In this document: piece after piece, positions 6,438 through 63,821 of the stretch
How the letters are laid out: every line of letters begins with the position of its first letter
How positions within the stretch are numbered: position 1 is the stretch's first letter
Origin: Octopus vulgaris
Lineage: Eukaryota
Length of the DNA stretch: 64,000 nucleotides
Assembly (NCBI GenBank): GCA_951406725.2
Contig: OX597819.1
Span: forward strand, 12,648,001 to 12,712,000
Reading direction: 5' to 3'
Notes under the pieces: model-generated
Told to the model about the DNA's origin: nothing
What the model saw: the letters and a program-made list of their open reading frames with translations, nothing else
Database searches by the model: none
Position numbers and translations under genes: made by a program

Positions 6438-6514
6438 AATACAACTACAACATAATATTGTTGTTACTGTTTTTCGAGGTGGTGAGCTGGGCAGAATTAT
6501 GAGCAGCATTATGA

Positions 6515-7494
6515 GCATGCGTAAGCTCGTGAGGAACGAAGCCAGTATGCTCCGATGGATGTGTAATGTCAGTGTACTTACTCGACAGAGCGTTAGTACC
6601 TTGAGAGAAATGTTGTACCTAAGAAGCATCAGTTGTTGTGTGCAAGAGAGACGATTGCGCTGGTATGGTCATGTGGCGAGAATGGATGAAGATAGGTGTG
6701 TGAGAAAGTGCCAATCCCTAGCAGTTGAGGGAACCCGTGGAAGAGGTAGACCCAGGAAAACCTGGGACGAGTTGGTGAAGCACGACCTTCGGACGTTAGG
6801 TCTCACCATGGAAATGACTAGAGACCGAGACCTATGGAAGTATGCTGTGCGTGAGAAGACCCGGCAAGACTAGTGAAGCCATAATCCGTGGCCCCTACCT
6901 GGGACGTAGTCAGTCCACCTGTGCATACCTTCCTTCTTGTGACACTTGTGAAGACCTGTTGAGGCAAGTGAGAATCGAATTGTATCGAATCAAATCGAAC
7001 CAAATCAAAATAGATGAACATCAATGGAATTTGTATCCTTGTGGTACCAGTGCCGGTGGCACATAAGAAAACCATCCGAACGTGACCGTAGCCAGTACCG
7101 CAATGACTGGCCTCCGTGCTGAGGGCACGTAACAAACACCATCCGAGCGTGGCCGTCCGCCAGCCTCGTCTGGCACCTGTGTCGGTGACACATAAGAAAA
7201 CACCATCCGAGCGTGGCCGTCTGCCAGCCTCGTCTGGCACCTGTGTCGGTGGCACATAAAAAACACCATCCGAGCGTGGCCGTCTGCCAGCCTCGTCTGG
7301 CACCTGTGTCGGTGGCACATAAAATCACCCACTACACTCTCGGAGTGGTTGGCGTTAGGAAGGGCATCCAGCTGTAGATACACTGCCACATCTGACTGGC
7401 CTGGTGCAGCCTTCGGGCTTCCCAGACCCCAGTTGAACCGTCCAACCCATGCTAGCATGGATAGCGGACGTTAAACGATGATGATGATGATGAT
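6515..7494 (+). mobile_element. 5'-truncated RTE-clade LINE (ORF C-terminus plus 3' UTR with ~60-bp tandem repeats and (GAT)n tail), nested in a family-A SINE
   Basis: ORF 6499-6873 has RTE motifs EASMLRW, RRLRWYGHVARM, GRGRPRKTW; SINE head at 6478 resumes after 7495. Confidence 0.88.
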
Positions 7495-10490: not shown

Positions 10491-11224
10491 TTTTTTTTTC
10501 TTCTTTCAAATTTGCTTCCATTTCTTGCCGAGTGTCTTCCTGACTCCTAGGGCAGAGAAACTCATAGTATACATTGGTAGGCCATTAAACTAAACTCACT
10601 AGTTCGTTCATTTAAAAAAAAAATTAGATTAAGTTTTTTTAAGTTATTGTTATTATTATTATTATTGAGTGAGAGAGCAGTGCATGCCATCAAAGTGACA
10701 CTGGGGTAAAATATACGAAGCCCAGTATACCCATCATGACTACCCGTCTGATAAGGGTACACTAGGCACATGCATCACAACCATATGTGCGCGACATGGT
10801 GATCTCATATCAAGATAAACAGCACATGACCTTGCAGGTGGGGCCCAGTTAGAATTTTCTTCAGGTCGAGTAACCCATCCCACTTGAAAGGTCCCTGAAT
10901 AAGGGTTGTTTAAGGATGTTGAAAGAACCACCCATGTTTCCAGAGGTGAATTATTCAAACCCCAAAGAATCCCTCTCAACACATGGCTATGATGCTCCCC
11001 CACTACTTCTGCTTGTGGTCAGAGATGCACATATCGTCTGCCACTAAGGGACATGCTCAACTGGTTAAAGTCAAACAACTGACAAGCAAATCTGTGGTAT
11101 TGAGCAGAATATTTGCTATAGCCCATCTTTTATACCAAGACAAAACAATGTACATGATAACACTTCCAATCAGTTAAGATCAGAAGCCATGAGAGCCACT
11201 GCCTGATTATTATTATTATTATTA

Positions 11225-11267
<43 letters not shown>

Positions 11268-12330
11268 CTACCTTGAATTCCTCTCTGCCTCAAGTCTTTG
11301 GGTGTGATTCCTGTATAGTTGAAAATGCAGTATCTCTGCTATCAGTGCACAGATTAAGCAGTAAATCTAGAAAACAAACATGGAAATAGGTTATTTATTC
11401 AGAATGCAAAAAATATGGGAATGGCTGAAGTTGTTCAAATAATTAACTAAAAGCAACATGAAGGTGAGGGGGGTGGAGGGGGTGGTGGTTAATTAAATAG
11501 ACTCGTGCCAGAATGAGAAATATAAAAGCAAAAAAGACAGCAATGAAATATAGAATAATACTAAAACTAGTCTTAAAACCCAGCTGATTTGGCCTTATTC
11601 TCAATTTACAGATGTTATTGATGGAATATATTTTAAGCCAGCATCATTCCTATAGAAATAACCATAATAGATTTGCTTGATGCCAAAATTATTTTGGTAT
11701 TGTTCAGTATTGGCTCACATAATTTCCTGGTTTTATTTTATTTAACTTGGTGAGTTTTTAATAGTTCTGGTGGTTTTGTTCTTCACAAAGACTCAGTTTT
11801 GCTTCTGTTCTACTGCATCAGTGCCTCTCTAAATTAAACAATGCTCATCATGATGATAGTGCTGCTGCTGCCGCTGTGGCTGCTGCTGCCGCTGTGGCTG
11901 CTGCTGCCGCTGTGGCTGCTGCTGATGACACATTTTTTTTTTTTTTTTTAGTATTTTCATTTAACGGCTGAAAGCTTTAATGATTTCTGAGTTTTACATT
12001 CAAGATTTGGTTGATGGATTGTAATTGATTTCCTGTAGGTGCAGTTGTTGCTGTGTGACTAAGGAACTTGCTTCCTTATTACATTAGTTTCAGGTTCAAT
12101 CCCACTGCTTGGTACCTTGGGCAAGTTTCTTCTACAGCCATGGACTGACCAAAGCTCTGTGAATGGATTTGGGAGACGGAAATGGAAAAAGCTCATATGT
12201 GACATATATATATATATATGTACACACACACACTCACACATATGTATATGTATATATATATATATATGTATATATATATGTATATGTACATATATATATG
12301 TACACACACACACACACATATATATATATA

Positions 12331-13923: not shown

Positions 13924-16814
13924 TTAATTTATGCTTAAATCCAGCCTTGCCTACCACTAAAAAGAAGTCTAAAAAGTTAATTTTTTTCTCATTATTTTGA
14001 GTTTTAGTCACAAATAACAAATACCAATTTGTTGTGATGTCAATGACAACCAATCCAAATGTTTGTTTGGTATCTGGTTTTGTTCCATGCTAGCATGTGT
14101 TGTATGAAATTTTATTCAAGGCAGGATCTTACAGTGTGGGAACTCTTAATTTCAACAAACCTTACCTGTGTTTCAAAGTAAGGGATTTTATGTTTTTATT
14201 TGACAGGCTTTCAAAAATATAGAGCAACAGTTCTAATCTCAGTAAAGAATGTAAACATTATGGTACCATTTTGCTCAGCTGGTGACAAGCCACATCATGG
14301 AGTAACAATATTCACACAAATACATTCACAAACTCCTTATGCACCCCTTATGATGGGCTTCCATACAGATTCCTCTGTCAGATTCACCTACAACATATCA
14401 TTCAGTGTGGGTCTGTTCTAGAAAACACTTTGCTCCAAAGAGTCACACTGTGGAACTGACTCTAAAATTACAAGGTTTGCAAAGTAATCTTCGTAATTCC
14501 ACAGCCATGTTTGTGCTCTGCAGTCATGGCCTGTGTATTCACTAAGTTTCATATTACAAACATTTTTGAGCTTACTCTTTTACTTGTTTCAGTCATTTGA
14601 CTGCGGCCATGCTGGAGCACCGCCTTTAGTCGAGCAAATCGACCCCGGGACTTATTCTTTGTAAGCCCAGTACTTATTCTATCGGTCTCTTTTGCCGAAC
14701 CGCTAAGTGACGGGGACGTAAACACACCAGCATCGGTTGTCAAGCAATGCTAGGGGGACAAACACAGACACACAAACACATACACACACATACATATATA
14801 TATATACATTTATACGACAGACTTCTTTCAGTTTCCATCTACCAAATCCACTTACAAGGCATTGGTCGGCCCGGGGCTATAGCAGAAGACACTTCCCAAG
14901 GTGCCACGCAGTGGGACTGAACCCGGAACCATGTGATTGGTTAGCAAGCTACTTACCACACAGCCACTCCTATTACATATCTTAATGTCATGATGTCAGA
15001 TTTAATGTCTTGTAGACTAGAAAGAGATATGCTAATTATTAGAATTAAGACACCTTGAGAGATACAAAGTCAAGTTTTTAATGGTGGAACTTGAAGTAGA
15101 TAAAGCTATTAATAATAGCTTGTAGAGTATTGGTTTAAAATATCCACATGTAGTCTTCAATTCCATTTTTTTTTCTCTATGGGATTTATTTTTTTAACCC
15201 AATAATCTATTTATAATTTTATCTACTTTGTGTTCCACCATTAAAAATAATTTATTTCATCTCTCTCAAAGTTTCTAAGTTCTTTTACTGTAAATAATGT
15301 ACAATTCTTACTGGTAAGAATAATGCTTTCAAAATTGGAGAAGATTCAAAGTGTTGCTTTGGCATAATCTTTTATCTTGTTCCATCATTACATTGTGGCC
15401 ATGCTGGGGCACTACCTTGAAAAATTTTAGTCAAATGGATTGACCCCCAGCACTTATTTGTTTTTAAGCCTTGGACTTATTCCATTGTTCCCTTGGACCA
15501 AACCAAGTTACAGGGATGTAAACACACACACACACACACTAAACCAACTGAAATGTGAAATTGTAAATATTAAAATGCTTGTCATCTTTAAAGATGAAAT
15601 TAAAAGTTAAAAAATTAGCAAAATCCTCTTCCTTATCATTTTAATATTTACTTTCCCATGCTTACATGGGTTAGACAAGGGTCTGTAGTAGGGTTTCCCA
15701 TGGCAGGAAGCCTTTCTTGTTGTCAACCCTCCAATTGTTTTCAAGTAAGGTAATAACGTCCCAGTCTATCAAACAAACAGCCTGCACATGTTTTTGTGCA
15801 GGGAATTAAAAACAAATGACACTGAATGAATGAGCCTTTTGTTTACAAAGATTGTGTCACATGTCGAGACATGTTAAGGGGCCTAGACATGCTTTCATGG
15901 TGGACTGCATGCAGATGACATCTGTAATGCCAATGTCTACACATGAACATGTGTAAACAAGGAAATACAAACTCTCCCTCTCTCACTCTTTCACACACAT
16001 GACTCCTGCTTGTGATTAGAGATGCTCATATTGTAATTAGAGGTCCACTAAGGGACATGCTCAACTGGTTAAGGCCAAGCAATTGACGAGCAAATCTGTG
16101 GTATTAAGCAGATTTCAGTTGTTAACATTGTGTTAACAAACAAGATAAGGACAAATATCCGTCAAATGTAACTAATGTAAATATTAAGTATTTATGGAAT
16201 TTTGATTTACTGTTGGGTGACTCATATATTCTGAGTGTAAAGTATAATTATTCTCTAGATTATCAATATATGAAGAGCAAGAAAAGTCTTTTTAAATAAG
16301 TGTGGGTATAACTTTAGTTAAGCTATAAACACAAAATTAATGGAAACCAGATTTGTGTTAACGAAAGATTTATTAAATACATGAGGGTTACATCCGCTAG
16401 TCAACTCCTGCTAAGTAGAAAGCCTGCTTAACTGGAAGTTCACTTTGCTGCGGACCAGCTCCCTGGCTAGCCCATAGCGAAGTTCCTGACTATAGTTTAT
16501 CTGTTGTAAATGGGCATAATATAATTCTCTGAGTCCATGCTGTAAAGTGTTTGATAAGAAGGGCACCCACATGTAGAAAGAATAAAGGAGATATGGACTC
16601 TGCAAGCTGTATCCCAAAGTACCCTGTCTAGAGGAGAGTAACTCAGAATAAGACCTAATGCAGGTAGAGACTCTTTACAGACAACTTATGTAGAGCCAGT
16701 GGCACAAGAAGATCAACCCAGTCCATGCTGTAACTCATGTGAGCGTTCATTTTAAAGGCAGGAAATGAAAGGAAAGGTCGCGGTTTCGCATTGTAGCGAA
16801 ACTAGAGGTGGTTT

Positions 16815-23517: not shown

Positions 23518-25919
23518 GGTGGTGAGTTGGCAAAATCGTTAGAATGTTGGGCAAAATGCTTAGCAGCATTTCGTCCATCTTTGTGTTCTGAGTTCAAACT
23601 CTACTGAGGTCAACTTTGCCTTTCATCCCTTCGGGTCAATAAAATAAGCACCTGTTGAGCACTGGGGTCAGTGTAATTGACTAACCCCTCCCTCTCCCGC
23701 AATATCAGGCCTTGTGCCTATAGTAGAAAGGATTATTATTATTATTAAGGCAGCAAACTGGCAGAACCATTAGCATGCTGGACAAAATGCTTAACAGTAT
23801 TTCCCCTGTTGCTACATTGTGAGTTCAAATTCTGCCGAGGTCAACTTTGCCTTTCATCCCTTCGGGGTCAATAAAATAAGTACCTGTTGAGCACTGGGGT
23901 CAGTGTAATTGACTAACCCCCTCCCTCTCCCGCAATATCAGGCCTTGTGCCTATAGTAGAAAGGATTATTATTATTATTAAGGCAGCAAACTGGCAGAAC
24001 CATTAGCATGCTGGACAAAATGCTTAACAGTATTTCCCCTGTTGCTACATTGTGAGTTCAAATTCTGCCGAGGTCAACTTTGCCTTTCATCCTTTCAGGG
24101 TCAGTAAAATAAGTACCAGTTGAACACTGGGATCACTGTAACTGACTTGTCCCCTTGCCCAAAATTGTTGCCCTTGTGGCAAAATTTTGAAAGCATTATT
24201 ATTATTATTATTATAGAATGCAATTATAGAATTGTTCTTGAAACATTTTCTGAGAATTTCTTAATTTGTTAATTGTATTAAAACTATGTTGATAAGAAGC
24301 CATATTTAAGAAAAAAAGTTGATTTAGGATATAAACAAGCATCATCATTTTGAAAACTGTTTTTCAAGACAAATGACATATTTGTTTTATTTGAATAAAA
24401 TAGTAAAAAATTATTTTGTTATAAACCTGTTTCATTGTTTAACTCTGCTAGGTAAGCTGTTTTCTTGCAATTTACTGATCAAACATCTTATGAGAGCCTG
24501 AACATTCTTAAGAAACCTTATGATGCATGTTGTTTGGTAATGCGTATTTAATTTTGTTTTAATTTTGTTAAATATTGAACAATGATTTAGACATTAAAAT
24601 TATTATTATCAAAAATAAAGAAATCATTATTTTTGTTTTTGTTGTTATATTTCTATGACTTTCCAGGCTTTTATAAATCTGAGAACCAAGTGAAATTATC
24701 AGGTCAGTTGGTGTGTGTGTGTGTATGGGTTGTTCTCCTACACAATTCCTGGCTTCCACTTGCCCTCTGCTCACAGTTCTGTTCTAATCAGCTTATGTCT
24801 GCCGCCTTGTTCCTTGTTATGATTCCTTGATACCAAATCTATCTGATCCAAATCCTAAAACTGATTTCCCAAGCATCCTTACTACCAGAAAGTTATAACA
24901 GTCTTATTGATTAGTTTGTGTTTAACAACCCCATCATATATTATTATTATTATTATTATGTAAATAGTTGTTGTTATTATTGTTGTTGTTTTCCCGCTGT
25001 AACTAAAGAAATGGACACCATGCTCCTTTTGAATTCAACAGTTCATGTCTCAAAATGAAACTCCTTTTCATTTTGTTCTTTGTAAGTAGAAATAATTAAG
25101 AGAATACAGTTATTATTTATTGTTTTGGTATTTTATTTGTTGTATCTTTGAAAGTATTTAGATATTAACATGAAAGTGGGGGTGTGTGTGGGGGGTGGGG
25201 GTGAGGAAAGTGAAATATTTTAGTTATTTTCAATTTATTTCTTCAAATAACAAATATTTAAGGATTTATTTGAAATGTAAAGTAGCTTCAAAAGTACTCA
25301 TAAAAATAAGATTTAAATTTTAATTCACTTTGTTTTTACTGTGAAACCTTTTTATAATTTTCTTGCAAACTAAAAATCAAACCCCAAAACCTATTCAGGA
25401 AAATCTTTTGAAGTTCTGGGTTTTCATGACTAGGGTTACATATGAAAGGTTGTAAGGGTTGATGAAAATTAGATTTTATTTCAAACAGCAGAGTTTGTAT
25501 GAGAGTTTGGTTAGTTGATTTGTCTTGAGGAGTGAAGATCTAGTTTTGGGTACTTTCCTTTATTTGACAATTGGGCATTGTTATGGACATTGGGCAGTTG
25601 TTTATGGAGCCTGTCACCTAACATATACCACAGTGCTTTCATATTATGCAATATATTAAGTTGGAGGAAGAAGTTCTACTCTTGTTCAGTTTGTCTCAGA
25701 CATGTTCTAGTTGAATGAAATATCAATTTGCTGTATCTCTATTTTATCTCCTCATGTATCTTCAGCAACATTTTTCTTTCACATTTATGTCATCTAAAAA
25801 CGAAATAGTATGCATCATACTACTATGATTACTAATCTTCTAGTGGAATCAGTTGAAATGTTGGTAAATATGGATCTGAGAACTTTATTCTTTCAAAGTA
25901 ACAATAAAATGAAATCGGG

Positions 25920-26184
25920 TTCTATATTTAAGAGATGAGGAATTATTTATATTTGATGGATATTTGTCCTCATCTTGTTTGTTTTTAACACAACATTTCG
26001 GTTGATATACCTTCCAAACTTCATCAAGTGTCTTGGGGAAATTTTGAACCTGGGTTCTCTTTCCTCAGGTATCTTTCAATATTATTATTACTATTATTAT
26101 AATTATTATTCAGGTCACTGCCTGGAATCGAACTCGGAATCTTGGGGTTAGTAGTCCGTGCTCTTAATCACTATGCCATATGCC
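25920..26184 (-). mobile_element. tRNA-headed SINE with hammerhead/Penelope-like 3' tail; followed by an inverted tail copy at 26187-26270(+)
   Basis: Minus strand: A box tggcatagtga, B box gagttcgattcc, (AAT)n, then agacac-ttgatga...ccgaaatgtt-gtgtt; second copy at 63377-63650. Confidence 0.7.
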
Positions 26185-27872
26185 TATGATGAAGGCTGGA
26201 GGGTTTATCAGCCAAAACATTGTGTTAACAACAAACAAGATGAGGACAAATATCCATCAAATGTAAATAATGAAAATGAAATCTGTCGGGGTGGGTTTTA
26301 AATGTCCTGCTATGAATTTGGGAATAGACAAATAATCTATTTATGGAAAATGATGAAACATTCTTAACTTATAAACCTTTACTAAAACAACCCAGAGATC
26401 AGTGACTGACAGAGAAGCATGCAAGAACTGCATGAACTTTCTATTCTTTCCTAAACTGAGTCATAACATATTTTTTTGTTAAAGGGAGTGAGTAATGTGG
26501 GAGAAGAGATGTAGAGGTAGCTAAAACTAATAATCTAAACTAATACTGTAGTTTACATTGAGTTAAATCTGCTGAAACAAAGCTCCTTATTTTCATCTCT
26601 CATCATCTCTGTTGTTTTTCCACAAACTTCTTGAGACAGTCACACATGTTTTCATTCTTTACCCTTATTTCAAGCCTGTTATTTATACATCTAATTCTTC
26701 TCCATTGTACAAGAATACTGCCATCTTTACTCCCTCTGTTTGTAATTCATAAACTATTTGACATTCCTACAAAATCAACAAATTCAATAATTAATAAACT
26801 CATCTGCCTGCTGACTGTGAATTGCCTTCATTTTTTTTTTGTTCTACACTCGCGGAGTGGTTGGCGTTAGGAAGGGCATCCAGCTGTAGAAACACTGCCA
26901 GATCAGACTGGAGCCTGGTGCAGCCTTCTGGCTTCCCAGACCCCGGTCGAACTGTCCAACCTGTGCTAGCGCGGAAAATGGACATTAAACGATGATGCTG
27001 ATGATGATGAACAACAGATTAATTCACCACTTTTGTGCTTTAAATCTTAAAAACAAAACATTATTTCAATTGAATAAACATTTGATGAATTCATTTGTGA
27101 GTTTCCTGCTTAGTAGAGCTATAACCGCTCTGTGTTTACTCATCAGTCAGGTCAGTTGTCATTGAGCAGACCAGTGATTAAAGACATGCCAACTGTGACC
27201 ATCCTGTCTCATTCAGATATATTGGTATCTAGGATGACATTCAATATACTTTTATTTTTATAAGAGATTGGGTGTTGTTTGAGAGAGATTTGGCTGCCAT
27301 GTCAAGCAGGTTAAACAACCACATATGTAGAGTTTCTGCCATTGGCTTGAGAGGAACCCTTGTGGTGTTGAATCGTTTGGAGAAACAATGGTCCTGTCCA
27401 CACTGCTTTTATTTGCTATGTAGGCAGCATCGTTTGTTCTTTAATAGAAACACAATTATGCGTCATTGCACATAGATGCACAGGTCATCCAGTTATCTCA
27501 AGTTGCATTAGCTGCGTCCGAAAGAGTTGCCATGCTTCTTGCTTCAAATTGTGCTGGAATGAGATGCAACTACAAATTAAAAAGAAAGAAAAACAAGATT
27601 ATGGTTAGGATTTGCAGATAAAAGCACCAGCAATGTTTTAAAAGAGGCTGAGATATATATTCTTTATCATTTCCTTGTTTCAGTCATTAGACTGTGGCCA
27701 TGCTGGAGCACCTCTTTGAAGAAATTTTAGCCAAATGAATTGACCGCAGTTTTAATTTTTTAAGACCGGTACTTATTCTGTCAGTTTCTTTTGCTGAATT
27801 GCTAAGTTACAGGGATGTAAACACACCAACATCAGTTGTCAAGCAATGGTGGGAGACACAGGCAGACAGACA

Positions 27873-37056: not shown

Positions 37057-37858
37057 TTGTGTATTTGTCTGTGGTCTAAAGTCAGTTGTATAAAAGTGGA
37101 GTTGGCAGTGTTGTTGACAAATTGTTTAGTAACTTTGTATCTTTGAAGTTGTACAGAATAAGAGATCCTTTACTTGAAAAAAAAAAAAAAAAACCCAGCT
37201 AAAGGTTACCATCAGAATGGGCATCCAGCACCTCAAATATTGTATTTGAGGTGCTGGTGGCACATAAAAAGCACCCACTACACTCTCAGAGCGGTTGGCA
37301 TTAGGAAGGGCATCCAGCTGTAGAAATACTGCCAGATCAGATTGGGGCCTGGTGCAGCCTGCTGGCCTCTCAGACCCCAGTCGAACTGTCCAACCCATGC
37401 CAGCATGGAAAACGGATGTTAAACGATGATGATGATTATAATGATGATCCAACCCATGCTAGCATGGGAAAATGGATGTAAAATGAATGAATGATAGGCT
37501 TAGGACTTCTTTGAATTATATTCCTCTTTCTATAGGTTTCTCAGTCATTTGGTGCCATTAATCAGTGCTTAAAGTGAGTCAGCTGTCTATTAAAGATATT
37601 AATCAGCAGTGGTAGCTTTAGTTATTAAGAGAAATTAGTTTTATAGAGATATAAAGCTGTTATACCACACTTTATTAAATAACATTTCACGTGAAGTATT
37701 GGTCAGTGATAAATGTCTATCAAATATATTAATCTGATATCAGCTTGTGAGTTATATTGGTTCTCTCAAACATACTCCTTGAACATATGTATCAACACAT
37801 CTGATATCAAACTTCTTAACTTACATAATTTCATGATTTTTTTTTTCTCTTTTTATAG

Positions 37859-38331
37859 AAACTTTATGCACATCCATTGTACCAGCTCTAATTGGAATGG
37901 CTCGAGCCATTGGCCGTTCTTCTGATGACGAAGTACCTCTCATAAAGCTGCTGTTTCCTTTACCAAGTTCCTGTGTTATGGAAGAGGTGTTGAGCGATGA
38001 CAAAAGCCCTCCAAAGAAACCATTCACCAAATTCCGATCGATATTCCCACGCACGTTATCTTCCCATGTAATCACACCAGAAAGTCCTACAAGTCCCACA
38101 CCAGGCATCAACGATGGCCCCATTGATTTCAGACGTGAACGATCTCCCTCCCCTATGGCACCAACACAACATAAAGGAGGTCTGACGGATGAATTGCTTG
38201 ACCCTACAATCCGTTATTTCAATAAAGTCGGATCTAGTTTCACACGAACCAAACCCTGGGGTTTTGAAATCATTCCTGAAGAAGATCACTTAAAATTTTC
38301 TAGTTCTCAACTCCAGACACTTGTTAGTGTG
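37859..38331 (+). CDS. PI4KA: PI4KA exon e (ETLCTSIVPALIGMARAIGRS...QLQTLVSV), phase 1-0
   Basis: tttatag| and |gtaagt; contains ORF 37897-38343; FTKFRSIFP motif and Ser/Pro-rich loop. Confidence 0.92.
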
Positions 38332-39015
38332 GTAAGTAACTAACCTTAACCCTAAATATCTACTAATGTCATTGTCAGTGCTTGTTGGTTTATTTCATTA
38401 GCAATACTTCTGCCCATCCCCCTACCCCCAACAACCACCCTTTAAAAAAATTTCTTTTTTCGACACAACCCCACCTTTTCGGCTACAGGGAATATGAATC
38501 GGCAAAAAATTTGGCAAAAATCGATATTTCTAAATTACCACCCTCCACCCCCATTTCCTTCATTTTAAACTTTTTTCACAATTTTTTCCTTTCAAAATAT
38601 GCGGAAAAATACGGAGATTATGATTCTGAAAAAAATTTCCAAAAATCTTTGTAAAAAGTTTTTTTTTAAGAATTTTATTCTTCTAAATATGCAGAAAAAT
38701 ATGGACATCATGATTCGGACAAAAATTTCAAAACATTTCTGTACTTATGGTTACAGTTAGGGCTTTAGGGTTAGTGCTGGGGAAAAAGGTCAAAATTGAA
38801 GAAGTTGGTGGGGTGGGTGTGAAATTTCACAATGCCGATTTTTGGCAAAAAAAAAATTACAAAAATAAACAAATTTGAGAGAAAATGGGGAGGGGGGTGG
38901 GGTGACGGAAGTCTTTCCATTTCATTTGCCATCATTCTCCTCTTCTCCTCTCATCCATTGCTACGGCTAAAAAGTATCTTGGTATATTGGATCTTCTGCT
39001 CTTCTATCTTTTCAG

Positions 39016-50197: not shown

Positions 50198-50360
50198 TTA
50201 GATAAAATGAGATAACAAAGCCAAGGCTGTGAGGAGTTTCCAGGACATTTATTAGGAAAAAGATATAAAGCCTTACAGCTGTAAAACTATATCTATATCT
50301 TTTCCCTTATAAATGTCCTGAAAACTCCTCACAGCCTTGGCTTTATCTCATTTTGTCTAA
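50198..50360. repeat. ~160-bp inverted repeat centred on ttacagctgtaa
   Basis: Arms ttagataaaatgagataa...ccaaggctgtgaggagttt / aaactcctcacagccttgg...ttatctcattttgtctaa. Confidence 0.85.
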
Positions 50361-62857: not shown

Positions 62858-63376
62858 GTATGTACTACAACACAGCTTCCTTTTTTTTTAATTTTATTTA
62901 TATTTGCACTGAGTTTTTTCATTCACATACTTTCATTTCTAAACTTATTTTTTACCTTTTGATCTATCAAATTATTGTAGTTTAGCACCCACCTTCCCTA
63001 CCACCAGCACCACATCAGCTCTGATAAAGCAGTCCTATGACCAAGAGCATTTCAGCTCTAGCCATCCTCTGAGGTTTGACTGCTATTTCTAGCAGGTTAA
63101 GTGACCACATAGAGATTCCTTTATTGATTTAATCTAACCAATCAGATGTGTGATCTGCTATTATAGTCTTTTTCAGTTCACTTAACCTTCATCATTAATA
63201 CACCTGCGAAAGATATGAATGTTACGCCTCATTTATCTTCTTGCTAAAATTTCAAGTCATTATGGTAGTGTAACACAGTGGTTCCCAAAGTGGGCAGTGG
63301 AAAGTTCCAAGGGGGTGTTGAAGAAAAGTGGGGGCAATAATGGGGTGGTGATTCATGCAAAAACAAAATAATGGTG

Positions 63377-63540
63377 TTCTGTATTTAAGAGATGAGAATT
63401 ATTTACATTTGACGGATATTTGTCCTCATCTTGTTTGTTGTTAACACAATGTTTTGGCTGATACATCCTCCAGCCTTCATCAGGTGTGTTGGAGAAATTT
63501 TGAACCTTGGTTCTCATTCTTAAAGTAGTTTTCAATATTA

Positions 63541-63582
<42 letters not shown>

Positions 63583-63650
63583 TCACTGCCTGGAATCAAA
63601 CTTGGAATCTTGGGGTTAGTAGCCTGCGCTCTTAACCACTACGCCATATG
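63377..63650 (-). mobile_element. Second copy of tRNA-headed hammerhead-tailed SINE; inverted head fragment at 63709-63747(+)
   Basis: Minus strand: catatggcgtagtggttaagagc...(aat)n...acacac-CTGATGA-a-ggctg...cagcc-aaaacatt-gtgtt. Confidence 0.72.
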
Positions 63651-63821
63651 AAAGATATGAAAATACTAGATTTATAAGCCCCCAAAATTCACTCCATAAT
63701 TGCCCACAGGCATATGGCGTAGTGGTTAAGAGCATGGGCTACTAACCATTTCTGGTACCGTAATGACTGACCAAAGCTTTGTGAGTGGATTTGGTAGACT
63801 GAAAGTGTGTAGAAGCCTGTC

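What the first reader, a model, noticed from the sequence alone, without database searches (positions are those of the whole stretch)
63377..63650. Pol III SINE whose 3' tail is a Penelope-type hammerhead ribozyme module
Seen: two full copies (63377-63650 and 25920-26184, both minus strand), an inverted tail (26187-26270) and a tail fragment (~16124-16180). Each full copy has a tRNA-like head (A box TGGCGTAGTGG, B box GAGTTCGATTCC), an internal (AAT)n spacer, then a tail. Combining copies and reversing CpG decay gives gacac-CTGATGA-a-ggctg[loop]cagcc-GAAACGTT-gtgtt. That is stem I gacac/gtgtt, the hammerhead core, stem II and a loopless palindromic stem III (ACGU). Established: Penelope-like elements (PLEs) carry such minimal type-I hammerheads, which cleave as dimers. 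Inference: this is a tRNA-derived SINE mobilised by PLE machinery rather than by a LINE, with self-cleavage shaping its RNA. No single copy here keeps every core base.
Basis: partly seen in the sequence, partly recalled or inferred. Interest (0 to 1): 0.85.

Follow-up and report, generated by a model that had tools for sequence, protein, structure and literature searches.

The report
Penelope retrotransposon with a tRNA promoter
In this genome, likely an octopus, the apparent SINE is the terminal repeat of a Penelope-type jumping gene that carries a tRNA-like sequence, likely its promoter, just ahead of its coding region and a predicted self-cleaving ribozyme within its first codons, and most copies consist of only this short piece.

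Summary
The family has over 5,000 exact head matches, and 1,759 copies keep the full minimal hammerhead pattern.

Insertions carry Penelope signatures. They are head-to-head inverted pairs with one long and one short 3' end (29 of 35), and 16 of 35 have target-site duplications of 8 bp or more.

The autonomous partner is a Poseidon-type Penelope-like element (PLE), and it contains the whole 'SINE'. The order is: ORF stop, 30 nt, tRNA-Arg-like head, (AAT)n, ATG, hammerhead within the first ~23 codons, tail running in frame into the next ORF. So the head is part of the PLE's pseudo-LTR, not a SINE head that captured a PLE tail.

Most heads (75 of 83) begin within 7 nt of the tRNA-like start. The element's sense strand has no conserved TTTT run, unlike 41 of 41 control PLE frames (shuffle P about 0.06). 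Likely mechanism: Pol III starts at the head and reverse transcription starts internally at the tail, giving SINE-like copies. Pol III use and self-cleavage are untested.

The parts
63579..63650 (-). tRNA-like head with A and B boxes (head positions 4-75)
   Evidence: best match tRNA-Arg among 10 genomic tRNAs tested, z about 7.8
63540..63578 (-). (AAT)n spacer of variable length
63376..63539 (-). Tail region = 5' leader end plus first ~51 codons of the PLE ORF (ATG at 63517-63515)
63443..63488 (-). Minimal type-I hammerhead (stem I, core at 63483-63477, stem II, palindromic CG); two core bases decayed in this copy
63376..63397 (-). PLE 'tail' extension, present on the long arm only
63651..63677 (+). 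Last codons and stop of the PLE ORF on the inverted arm; the stop lies in a TATA-like TTTATAA (63671-63677)
63678..63707 (+). 30-nt spacer between ORF stop and head; its last 7 nt form a hairpin with the head start
63708..63747 (+). First 40 nt of the head on the inverted arm, followed by unrelated sequence
25919..26184 (-). Second full arm (head, spacer, hammerhead, long end)
26187..26272 (+). Inverted, 5'-truncated partner arm with the short end
25906..25916 (.). Left copy of an 11-bp target-site duplication
26273..26283 (.). Right copy of the 11-bp target-site duplication
16124..16183 (+). 5'-truncated tail fragment with the short end

Best explanation
[quoted passage not shown] SHOWN: the order stop, 30 nt, head, (AAT)n, ATG, hammerhead, tail, rest of ORF; two preferred 3' ends 24-30 nt apart; head-to-head arms with one long and one short end inside one target-site duplication; a sharp 5' edge at the head. 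INFERRED from Poseidon_Ac (PMC11167929): the protein cuts both target strands and primes two cDNAs at two internal RNA sites, so the RNA's own 3' end does not matter. INFERRED here: transcripts start about 6-7 nt ahead of the head, about 24-30 nt behind a TATA-like TTTATAA. Priming at the first tail gives head-to-tail short copies. Priming at the second tail of a read-through RNA copies the ORF. The two cDNAs are joined, often through the palindrome at the head start. Every short copy keeps promoter and priming sites, so it could itself act as a SINE. The hammerhead is predicted to cut only as a dimer or with protein help, about 70 nt after the ATG, and is likely not needed for insertion.
For: Partner: RT-picked loci that reach the ORF end continue into the head in 18 of 19. 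ORF-5'-picked loci have the tail directly upstream on the same strand in 20 of 30, running in frame into the ORF. The tail frame matches the N-terminus of foreign PLE proteins P0005 and P0140. L272 has a natural 569-aa open frame with DKG, RT and C-terminal endonuclease motifs. L329 is a partial tandem; L340 and L307 start at the head and run into the ORF. PLE signature: 29 of 35 pairs are long/short, P=6e-5; 16 of 35 share 8 bp or more at their outer flanks against 2.4% of mismatched pairs. 5' edge: of 83 heads from loci not picked by ORF sequence, 16 are symmetric fold-backs, 59 reach 7 nt or less upstream, 0 end at 8-18 nt and 8 go further. In a contiguous 468 kb, 2 of 21 head hits pass -20. 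Copies that do pass run on for a median of about 175 nt. Pol III fit: T>=5 runs 0 and T>=4 runs 0.41/kb in 48.3 kb of copies, none at a conserved place. T>=4 runs occur in 16 of 16 control PLE frames from this genome and 25 of 25 foreign ones. Hammerhead: 18 core-only sense hits in 80 foreign relatives, 15 with stem II of 4 bp or more and 16 with stem I of 3 bp or more, against 33% and 10% when halves are swapped between families.
Against: No transcription start, polymerase or cleavage was observed. RNA-seq reads fall equally on both strands, with no pile-up at the head start or the cut site. T-run absence is not significant against synonymous shuffling (0 vs 2.5 expected, P=0.057, with an imperfect frame), no single copy is significant, and L272 has 3 runs. 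A 10-bp hairpin spans the head start and could itself fix the 5' edge; the piles at -7 and -14 partly reflect this palindrome. The TATA-like motif fits Pol II as well. [quoted passage not shown] The dimer fold was not the minimum-energy cofold. No intact full ORF was found.
Confidence: 0.68

Rival explanations
1. Ordinary Pol II-driven PLE. The tRNA-like piece is a passenger (an old SINE or tRNA insert), and the short copies are 5'-truncated PLEs whose cDNAs stop or snap back at the hairpin around the head start.
For: The hairpin at -14..+10. 16 of 83 symmetric junctions, plus 14 junctions with a short fold-back extension. No diagnostic variants between short and long copies. TATA-like motif upstream. 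PLEs are known for heavy 5' truncation (PMC8557442, passages).
Against: Solo copies L340 and L307 begin 2-3 nt before the head with no inverted arm. RT stalling would be expected at the hairpin's 3' base, not its 5' side (inference). A and B boxes match the tRNA while the cloverleaf is lost. No conserved T>=4 run in the unit.
Confidence: 0.2
2. Mixed model: Pol II read-through RNA from tandems or flanks supplies the protein and the ORF-bearing copies, while Pol III from the head makes only short RNAs. These form a true SINE lineage mobilised in trans, closest to the first reader's view.
For: Short copies outnumber ORF copies: 2 of 21 head hits reach the ORF end, and first-look candidates number 35,207 for the tail, 2,541 for the RT region and 258 for the ORF 5' part (different query types, so rough). 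Head-start copies are less diverged than ORF-linked ones (3.7% vs 5.4%), though the sets were picked differently. Pol III is described as poorly suited to long templates (PMC10886601, passage).
Against: No SINE-specific diagnostic changes. Copies that start at the head and run through the ORF exist (L340). This model does not explain the lack of T runs in the ORF. It overlaps the best explanation and differs only in which polymerase makes the coding RNA.
Confidence: 0.3
3. Retrozyme-like element: hammerhead cleavage of multimeric RNA makes unit-length or circular templates that are reverse transcribed.
For: Intact hammerhead pattern in 1,759 copies; model proposed in PMC4209133 and bioRxiv 10.64898/2026.07.22.740005.
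Against: Units are head-to-head pairs, not head-to-tail arrays. Copies neither start nor end at the cut site. 29 of 294 tails have a 3-nt deletion that removes the cleavage triplet.
Confidence: 0.04

Closest known systems
Poseidon_Ac (PAc), Penelope/Poseidon clade PLE of Anolis (PMC11167929, main text read)
   Same: RT plus C-terminal GIY-YIG-type ORF; hammerhead overlapping the ORF start; two 3' ends that bound a 'tail'; AT-rich targets.
   Different: No tRNA-like head is described in the text read. Here the ATG lies 34 nt before the core instead of at stem II, and most copies are head-start short forms.
Minimal hammerheads of metazoan PLEs (PMC4209133, results and discussion read)
   Same: Core boxes, extra base between positions 9 and 10.1, G10.1-C11.1 pair, palindromic 15.2-16.2, 5-bp stem I, no loop 3.
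   Different: Nothing in the ribozyme itself; foreign relatives have the same form. This part is already known.
Schistosoma Sm-alpha / Sj-alpha SINE-like elements (PMC6765202, passages)
   Same: Pol III-type promoter followed by a hammerhead in a short repeat.
   Different: Those occur in tandem repeats and are cleaved out of multimers, and no PLE partner is named in the passages. Here the ribozyme is the minimal form, copies are inverted pairs, and the partner contains the whole unit.
Non-autonomous PLE derivatives: Chlamys MRC1 (PMC8557442, passage) and animal non-LTR retrozymes (bioRxiv 10.64898/2026.07.22.740005, parts 1-3 of 5)
   Same: Short non-coding copies related to the pLTR of a PLE.
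   Different: No tRNA-derived promoter is described; retrozymes are head-to-tail arrays.
TRIMp3: Cassandra, Helenus, Ajax (PMC10886601, passages)
   Same: Small-RNA-derived Pol III promoter inside a terminal repeat.
   Different: Those are non-autonomous LTR elements, and the paper expects their autonomous partners to use Pol II. Here the coding element itself has the tRNA-like repeat.
Octopus OK, OR1, OR2 tRNA-derived SINEs (Ohshima and Okada 1994; seen only as citations in PMC3531059, PMC4758252, PMC4824008)
   Same: Octopus tRNA-derived short repeats; that OR1/OR2 derive from tRNA-Arg is recalled, not from a call.
   Different: OR1 and OR2 are listed as CORE-SINEs.

Membership tests
PLE, Penelope/Poseidon clade | Single ORF with PLE-type RT and C-terminal GIY-YIG endonuclease | tested here: met
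   569-aa natural frame with DKG, RT and endonuclease motifs. Pfam gives only RVT_1 below cut-off. Homologues carry PF00078, PF26215, PF28514 and a few PF01541.
PLE, Penelope/Poseidon clade | No Zn-finger-like linker between RT and EN (present in Neptune/Nematis) | tested here: met
   The Cys-bearing insert of the 781-aa family is absent in the alignment; criterion from PMC8557442.
PLE, Penelope/Poseidon clade | Partial tandems forming pLTRs; inverted 5'-truncated upstream copy; tail at one end | tested here: met
   L329 tandem; 29 of 35 long/short pairs; tail 24-30 nt against the 30-40 bp quoted in PMC8557442.
PLE, Penelope/Poseidon clade | Phylogenetic placement with named reference elements | not tested
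   No named PLE references were available; no tree was built.
Minimal type-I hammerhead | Core CUGANGA/GAAA, stems I and II, palindromic 15.2-16.2, NUH triplet | tested here: met
   covarying stems in foreign relatives; no Rfam model matches
Minimal type-I hammerhead | Self-cleavage as dimer or with protein help | not testable with these tools
   No genomic or RNA-seq sign of the cut.
tRNA-derived SINE | tRNA-related 5' head with A and B boxes; 100-700 bp; non-coding | tested here: met
   for the short copies
tRNA-derived SINE | Shares only its 3' tail with the autonomous partner; head of separate origin | tested here: not met
   The partner carries the head too (18 of 19).
tRNA-derived SINE | Amplifies from its own short source copies | tested here: inconclusive
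   No diagnostic variants; lower divergence, but the sets were picked differently.
tRNA-derived SINE | Transcribed by Pol III | not testable with these tools
   Indirect only: 5' edge and T runs.
Non-LTR retrozyme | Head-to-tail tandem units, each with a hammerhead | tested here: not met
   Head-to-head pairs and singles dominate.
Sm-alpha-like SINE | Pol III promoter plus hammerhead, released from tandem multimers | tested here: not met
   The order promoter-then-ribozyme is shared; tandem multimers and cut-site ends are not seen.

The most novel reading that the evidence does not exclude
A protein-coding retrotransposon transcribed end to end by RNA polymerase III from a captured tRNA-Arg promoter. 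Its 2.6-kb unit is free of T-run terminators, its uncapped RNA is translated through an A-rich leader, and its internal priming produces a self-contained SINE from its own 5' end: a direct route from autonomous element to SINE with no chimera step.
Probability: 0.38. Interest if true: 0.88.

Novelty: new variant of a known kind. Interest (0 to 1): 0.72.

Why it matters
SINEs are usually described as Pol III heads fused to tails copied from a LINE, while autonomous non-LTR elements use Pol II (PMC10886601, passage). Here head, ribozyme and priming sites all belong to one autonomous Penelope element, and the SINE-like copies are its own terminal repeat.

If the promoter works, this gives a simple origin for PLE-driven SINEs, and possibly a Pol III-made coding RNA.

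The thousands of two-arm insertions, with one long and one short end inside a target-site duplication, are also a large natural test of the two-site internal priming model shown in vitro for Poseidon_Ac.

For annotation, an abundant 'tRNA SINE' of this genome belongs with the PLEs.

Tried and rejected
Rfam and ARAGORN: no hammerhead or tRNA hit on the element.

Neptune-type PLEs as partner: the GIY-YIG search found them, but 0 of 30 loci and 0 of 20 longer stretches share head or tail.

The tail-peptide search gave no long coding frame; the 425-aa frame was microsatellite.

Cleavage-defined 5' ends: 12 of 117 start in the 10 nt after the cut against 2 in the 10 nt before, P=0.25 against uniform, and alignment edges shift there; inconclusive.

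A dead-ribozyme subfamily: the 3-nt deletion (29 of 294) is only weakly tied to the N7 variant (P=0.02), so recurrent slippage is not excluded.

Subfamily markers for short copies: none beyond CpG sites at P<0.01. Dimer cofold did not give the dimeric stem III.

Sequencing runs: no RNA holder listed; three added RNA runs were laid and gave no strand or end information.

Foreign relatives: none found with P0005 or in viral contigs. Of 80 metagenome loci, one A/B-box hit, in L422, not in the repeat position.

Literature: searches showed no PLE with a tRNA-derived promoter in titles, abstract starts or passages read (searches returned 0 papers). Repbase, Dfam, Ohshima and Okada 1994, Lunse 2017, Albertin 2015 and the SINEBase supplements could not be seen and may already list this family. 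Three look-ups of earlier scan findings were empty.

Full report
1. Observation. The copies are at the stated places. The genome has 2.8 Gb in 227 contigs. The tail frame hits the N-terminus of a protein its source names as Octopus sinensis, so the host is likely an octopus (inference). Exact 20-mers give 5,148 heads and 6,592 hammerhead 5' parts, and 1,759 sites keep stem I, core, stem II and GAAACGTT exactly; all reversed controls are 0. Exact-match rates of 15 of 32 and 6 of 11 in copies not picked by the same motif suggest roughly 11,000-12,000 arms, a rough figure. 24 of 30 head-picked hits have a same-strand tail within 650 bp.

2. Hammerhead. Over 294 tails, the only common non-CpG substitution in the core is at N7 (A in 48), the free position of CUGANGA. 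The drawn structure scores -12.2 kcal/mol against -13.6 for the minimum, which keeps stems I and II. It fits the minimal form of PMC4209133 (results and discussion read). In 80 metagenome loci of related PLEs, a core-only scan gave 18 sense and 2 antisense hits. 15 of 18 form stem II and 16 of 18 form stem I, against 33% and 10% for swapped halves, and 13 of 18 share the GUU triplet. Rfam does not detect it. Cleavage is untested.

3. Insertion signature. 3' ends are bimodal, near tail positions 142-151 and 172-175. Among 35 head-to-head pairs from 90 motif-picked loci on C1, 29 have one long and one short end (17.5 expected, P=6e-5), 3 have two long and 3 have two short. Outer flanks share 8 bp or more in 16 of 35 pairs, against 2.4% of mismatched pairs, so each such pair is one insertion. 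The window unit 25906-26283 has an 11-bp duplication. Inverted upstream copies and a one-sided tail are PLE hallmarks (PMC8557442, passages). PMC11167929 (main text read) shows for Poseidon_Ac that the tail lies between two internal RT start sites, that both strands are cut, and that hammerhead mutants still insert in vitro.

4. The partner. Neptune-type PLEs do not share the sequence. A minority of heads run upstream into a conserved sequence (540 exact 22-mers) that translates as an endonuclease C-terminus and, in L218, an RT. Of 30 RT-picked loci, 19 reach the ORF end and 18 of these continue into the head; the other 11 break off earlier. Of 30 loci picked by the ORF 5' part, 20 have the tail directly upstream on the same strand, and it runs in frame into the ORF. 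The same start is seen in foreign proteins P0005 and P0140. The longest natural open frame found is 569 aa (L272), 68% identical to its best homologue, and it lacks the Cys-bearing linker of the Neptune-type family. This points to Penelope/Poseidon; no tree was built. L329 is a partial tandem with a repeat at each end, and L340 starts 2 nt before the head and spans the ORF. ORF segments differ from their majority by a median of 5.8% (30 segments), and none was intact. The flagged locus itself holds the ORF's last codons and stop at 63651-63677(+). So the 'SINE' is the pLTR.

5. The head. It aligns best to tRNA-Arg(TCG) and tRNA-Arg(TCT) among 10 genomic tRNAs of 6 isotypes (z 7.9 and 7.7; next Ala, 6.4); other isotypes were not tested. 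A and B boxes are kept and the cloverleaf is not. Of 83 heads in loci not picked by ORF sequence, 16 are symmetric fold-backs, 59 extend 7 nt or less, none ends at 8-18 nt and 8 extend 19 nt or more (matches allowed 7 substitutions in 40 nt, so a few start just inside the head). In 400 kb of contiguous C1 plus the window and its 4-kb neighbour, 2 of 21 head hits pass -20, and no other ORF sequence occurs (the C1 stretch was chosen for high density). Copies that pass run on for a median of about 175 nt, so the edge is not smooth truncation. TTTATAA lies at -36 to -30. Against this, a hairpin spans -14 to +10 and clearly takes part in junctions: 14 heads show a short fold-back extension.

6. Could Pol III read the whole element? 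In 48.3 kb of natural ORF copies there are no T>=5 runs and 0.41 T>=4 runs per kb, none shared by more than 3 copies. The column majority has none in 2,241 nt, and none in head, tail or spacer; 0 of 9 copies of the linker have one. All 16 control PLE frames and 3 other transposon frames of this genome, and all 25 foreign frames of 1.5 kb or more, have such runs. However, synonymous shuffling expects only 2.5 (P=0.057), no single frame is significant, and 2 of 8 family frames have runs. This is suggestive only.

7. Are short copies a lineage of their own? 65 head-start and 49 ORF-linked arms show no non-CpG difference at P<0.01; 56 arms with other starts were left out. Head-start arms are less diverged (3.7% vs 5.4%), but they were picked by exact motifs in these very parts. 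Unresolved.

8. RNA. Three RNA-seq runs of coded organism B carry the repeat at hundreds to about 2,500 reads per strand and the ORF 5' part mostly at 1-10, equally on both strands, with no pile-up at the head start or the cut site. This fits copies embedded in other transcripts and says nothing on the promoter. Genomic 5' ends show no significant pile-up after the cut site.

9. Mechanism and verdict. Most likely: transcription starts just ahead of the tRNA-like head (Pol III; inferred). The PLE protein primes two cDNAs at the two tail sites on a staggered cut (inferred from Poseidon_Ac). The cDNAs are joined head to head, often through the palindrome (junctions shown, steps inferred). Priming at the first tail gives the short copies. 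The ribozyme is structurally real but has no shown role. Known pieces: minimal hammerheads in pLTRs, non-autonomous PLE derivatives, Sm-alpha (Pol III promoter plus hammerhead; PMC6765202, passages) and tRNA-bearing LTRs (PMC10886601, passages). Not found in nine literature searches: an autonomous PLE with a tRNA-derived repeat. The octopus repeat paper PMC13282606 (parts 1-2 of 3) and PMC8967140 (passages) do not describe it. Repbase, Dfam and the 1994 OR1/OR2 paper were out of reach, so the short form may already have a name. Rating: new variant of a known kind, interest 0.72.

Noticed in passing
L061:1245-3587 and one search list: A young Neptune-type PLE family: 16 of 150 scored GIY-YIG hits lie in open frames of exactly 781 aa. 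No hammerhead was found by my scan in the two full copies examined.
   Followed up: partly
P0002: An annotated Octopus sinensis protein isoform begins with about 36 residues read from this element's tail frame; possible exonisation or an annotation artefact.
   Followed up: no
L120:1689-2100 (about 690-1,100 bp beyond the window end): Another complete two-arm unit of the family next to the flagged one.
   Followed up: partly
L130, L138, L255, L279 (AAT spacer): The (AAT)n spacer is often interrupted by other insertions; L279 holds a 351-aa LINE-like frame there.
   Followed up: no
L302, L305, L312, L317, L321: Internally deleted forms that join the ORF 5' part (reference positions about 320-420) to a downstream tail, two of them at nearly the same points; possible further non-autonomous forms.
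   Followed up: no
tail positions about 108-160 (L016, L203): A 9-bp hairpin closes the region that holds the short end; a 9-bp in-frame repeat varies in number in its loop. Candidate RT start structure.
   Followed up: partly
window 6439-6873 (+): Frame resembling the C-terminus of an RTE-like LINE protein (resemblance recalled; Pfam gave only a weak AT-hook).
   Followed up: partly
window 50225-50336: About 110-bp near-perfect inverted repeat, MITE-like, seen through a sub-threshold Rfam miRNA match.
   Followed up: no
window 37837-38343 (+): 168-aa open frame with exon-like, non-repetitive composition; no Pfam match.
   Followed up: partly
L422:2473-2526: tRNA-like A/B box upstream of a truncated foreign PLE ORF, followed by a T-rich stretch; not repeated at the ORF end.
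   Followed up: yes
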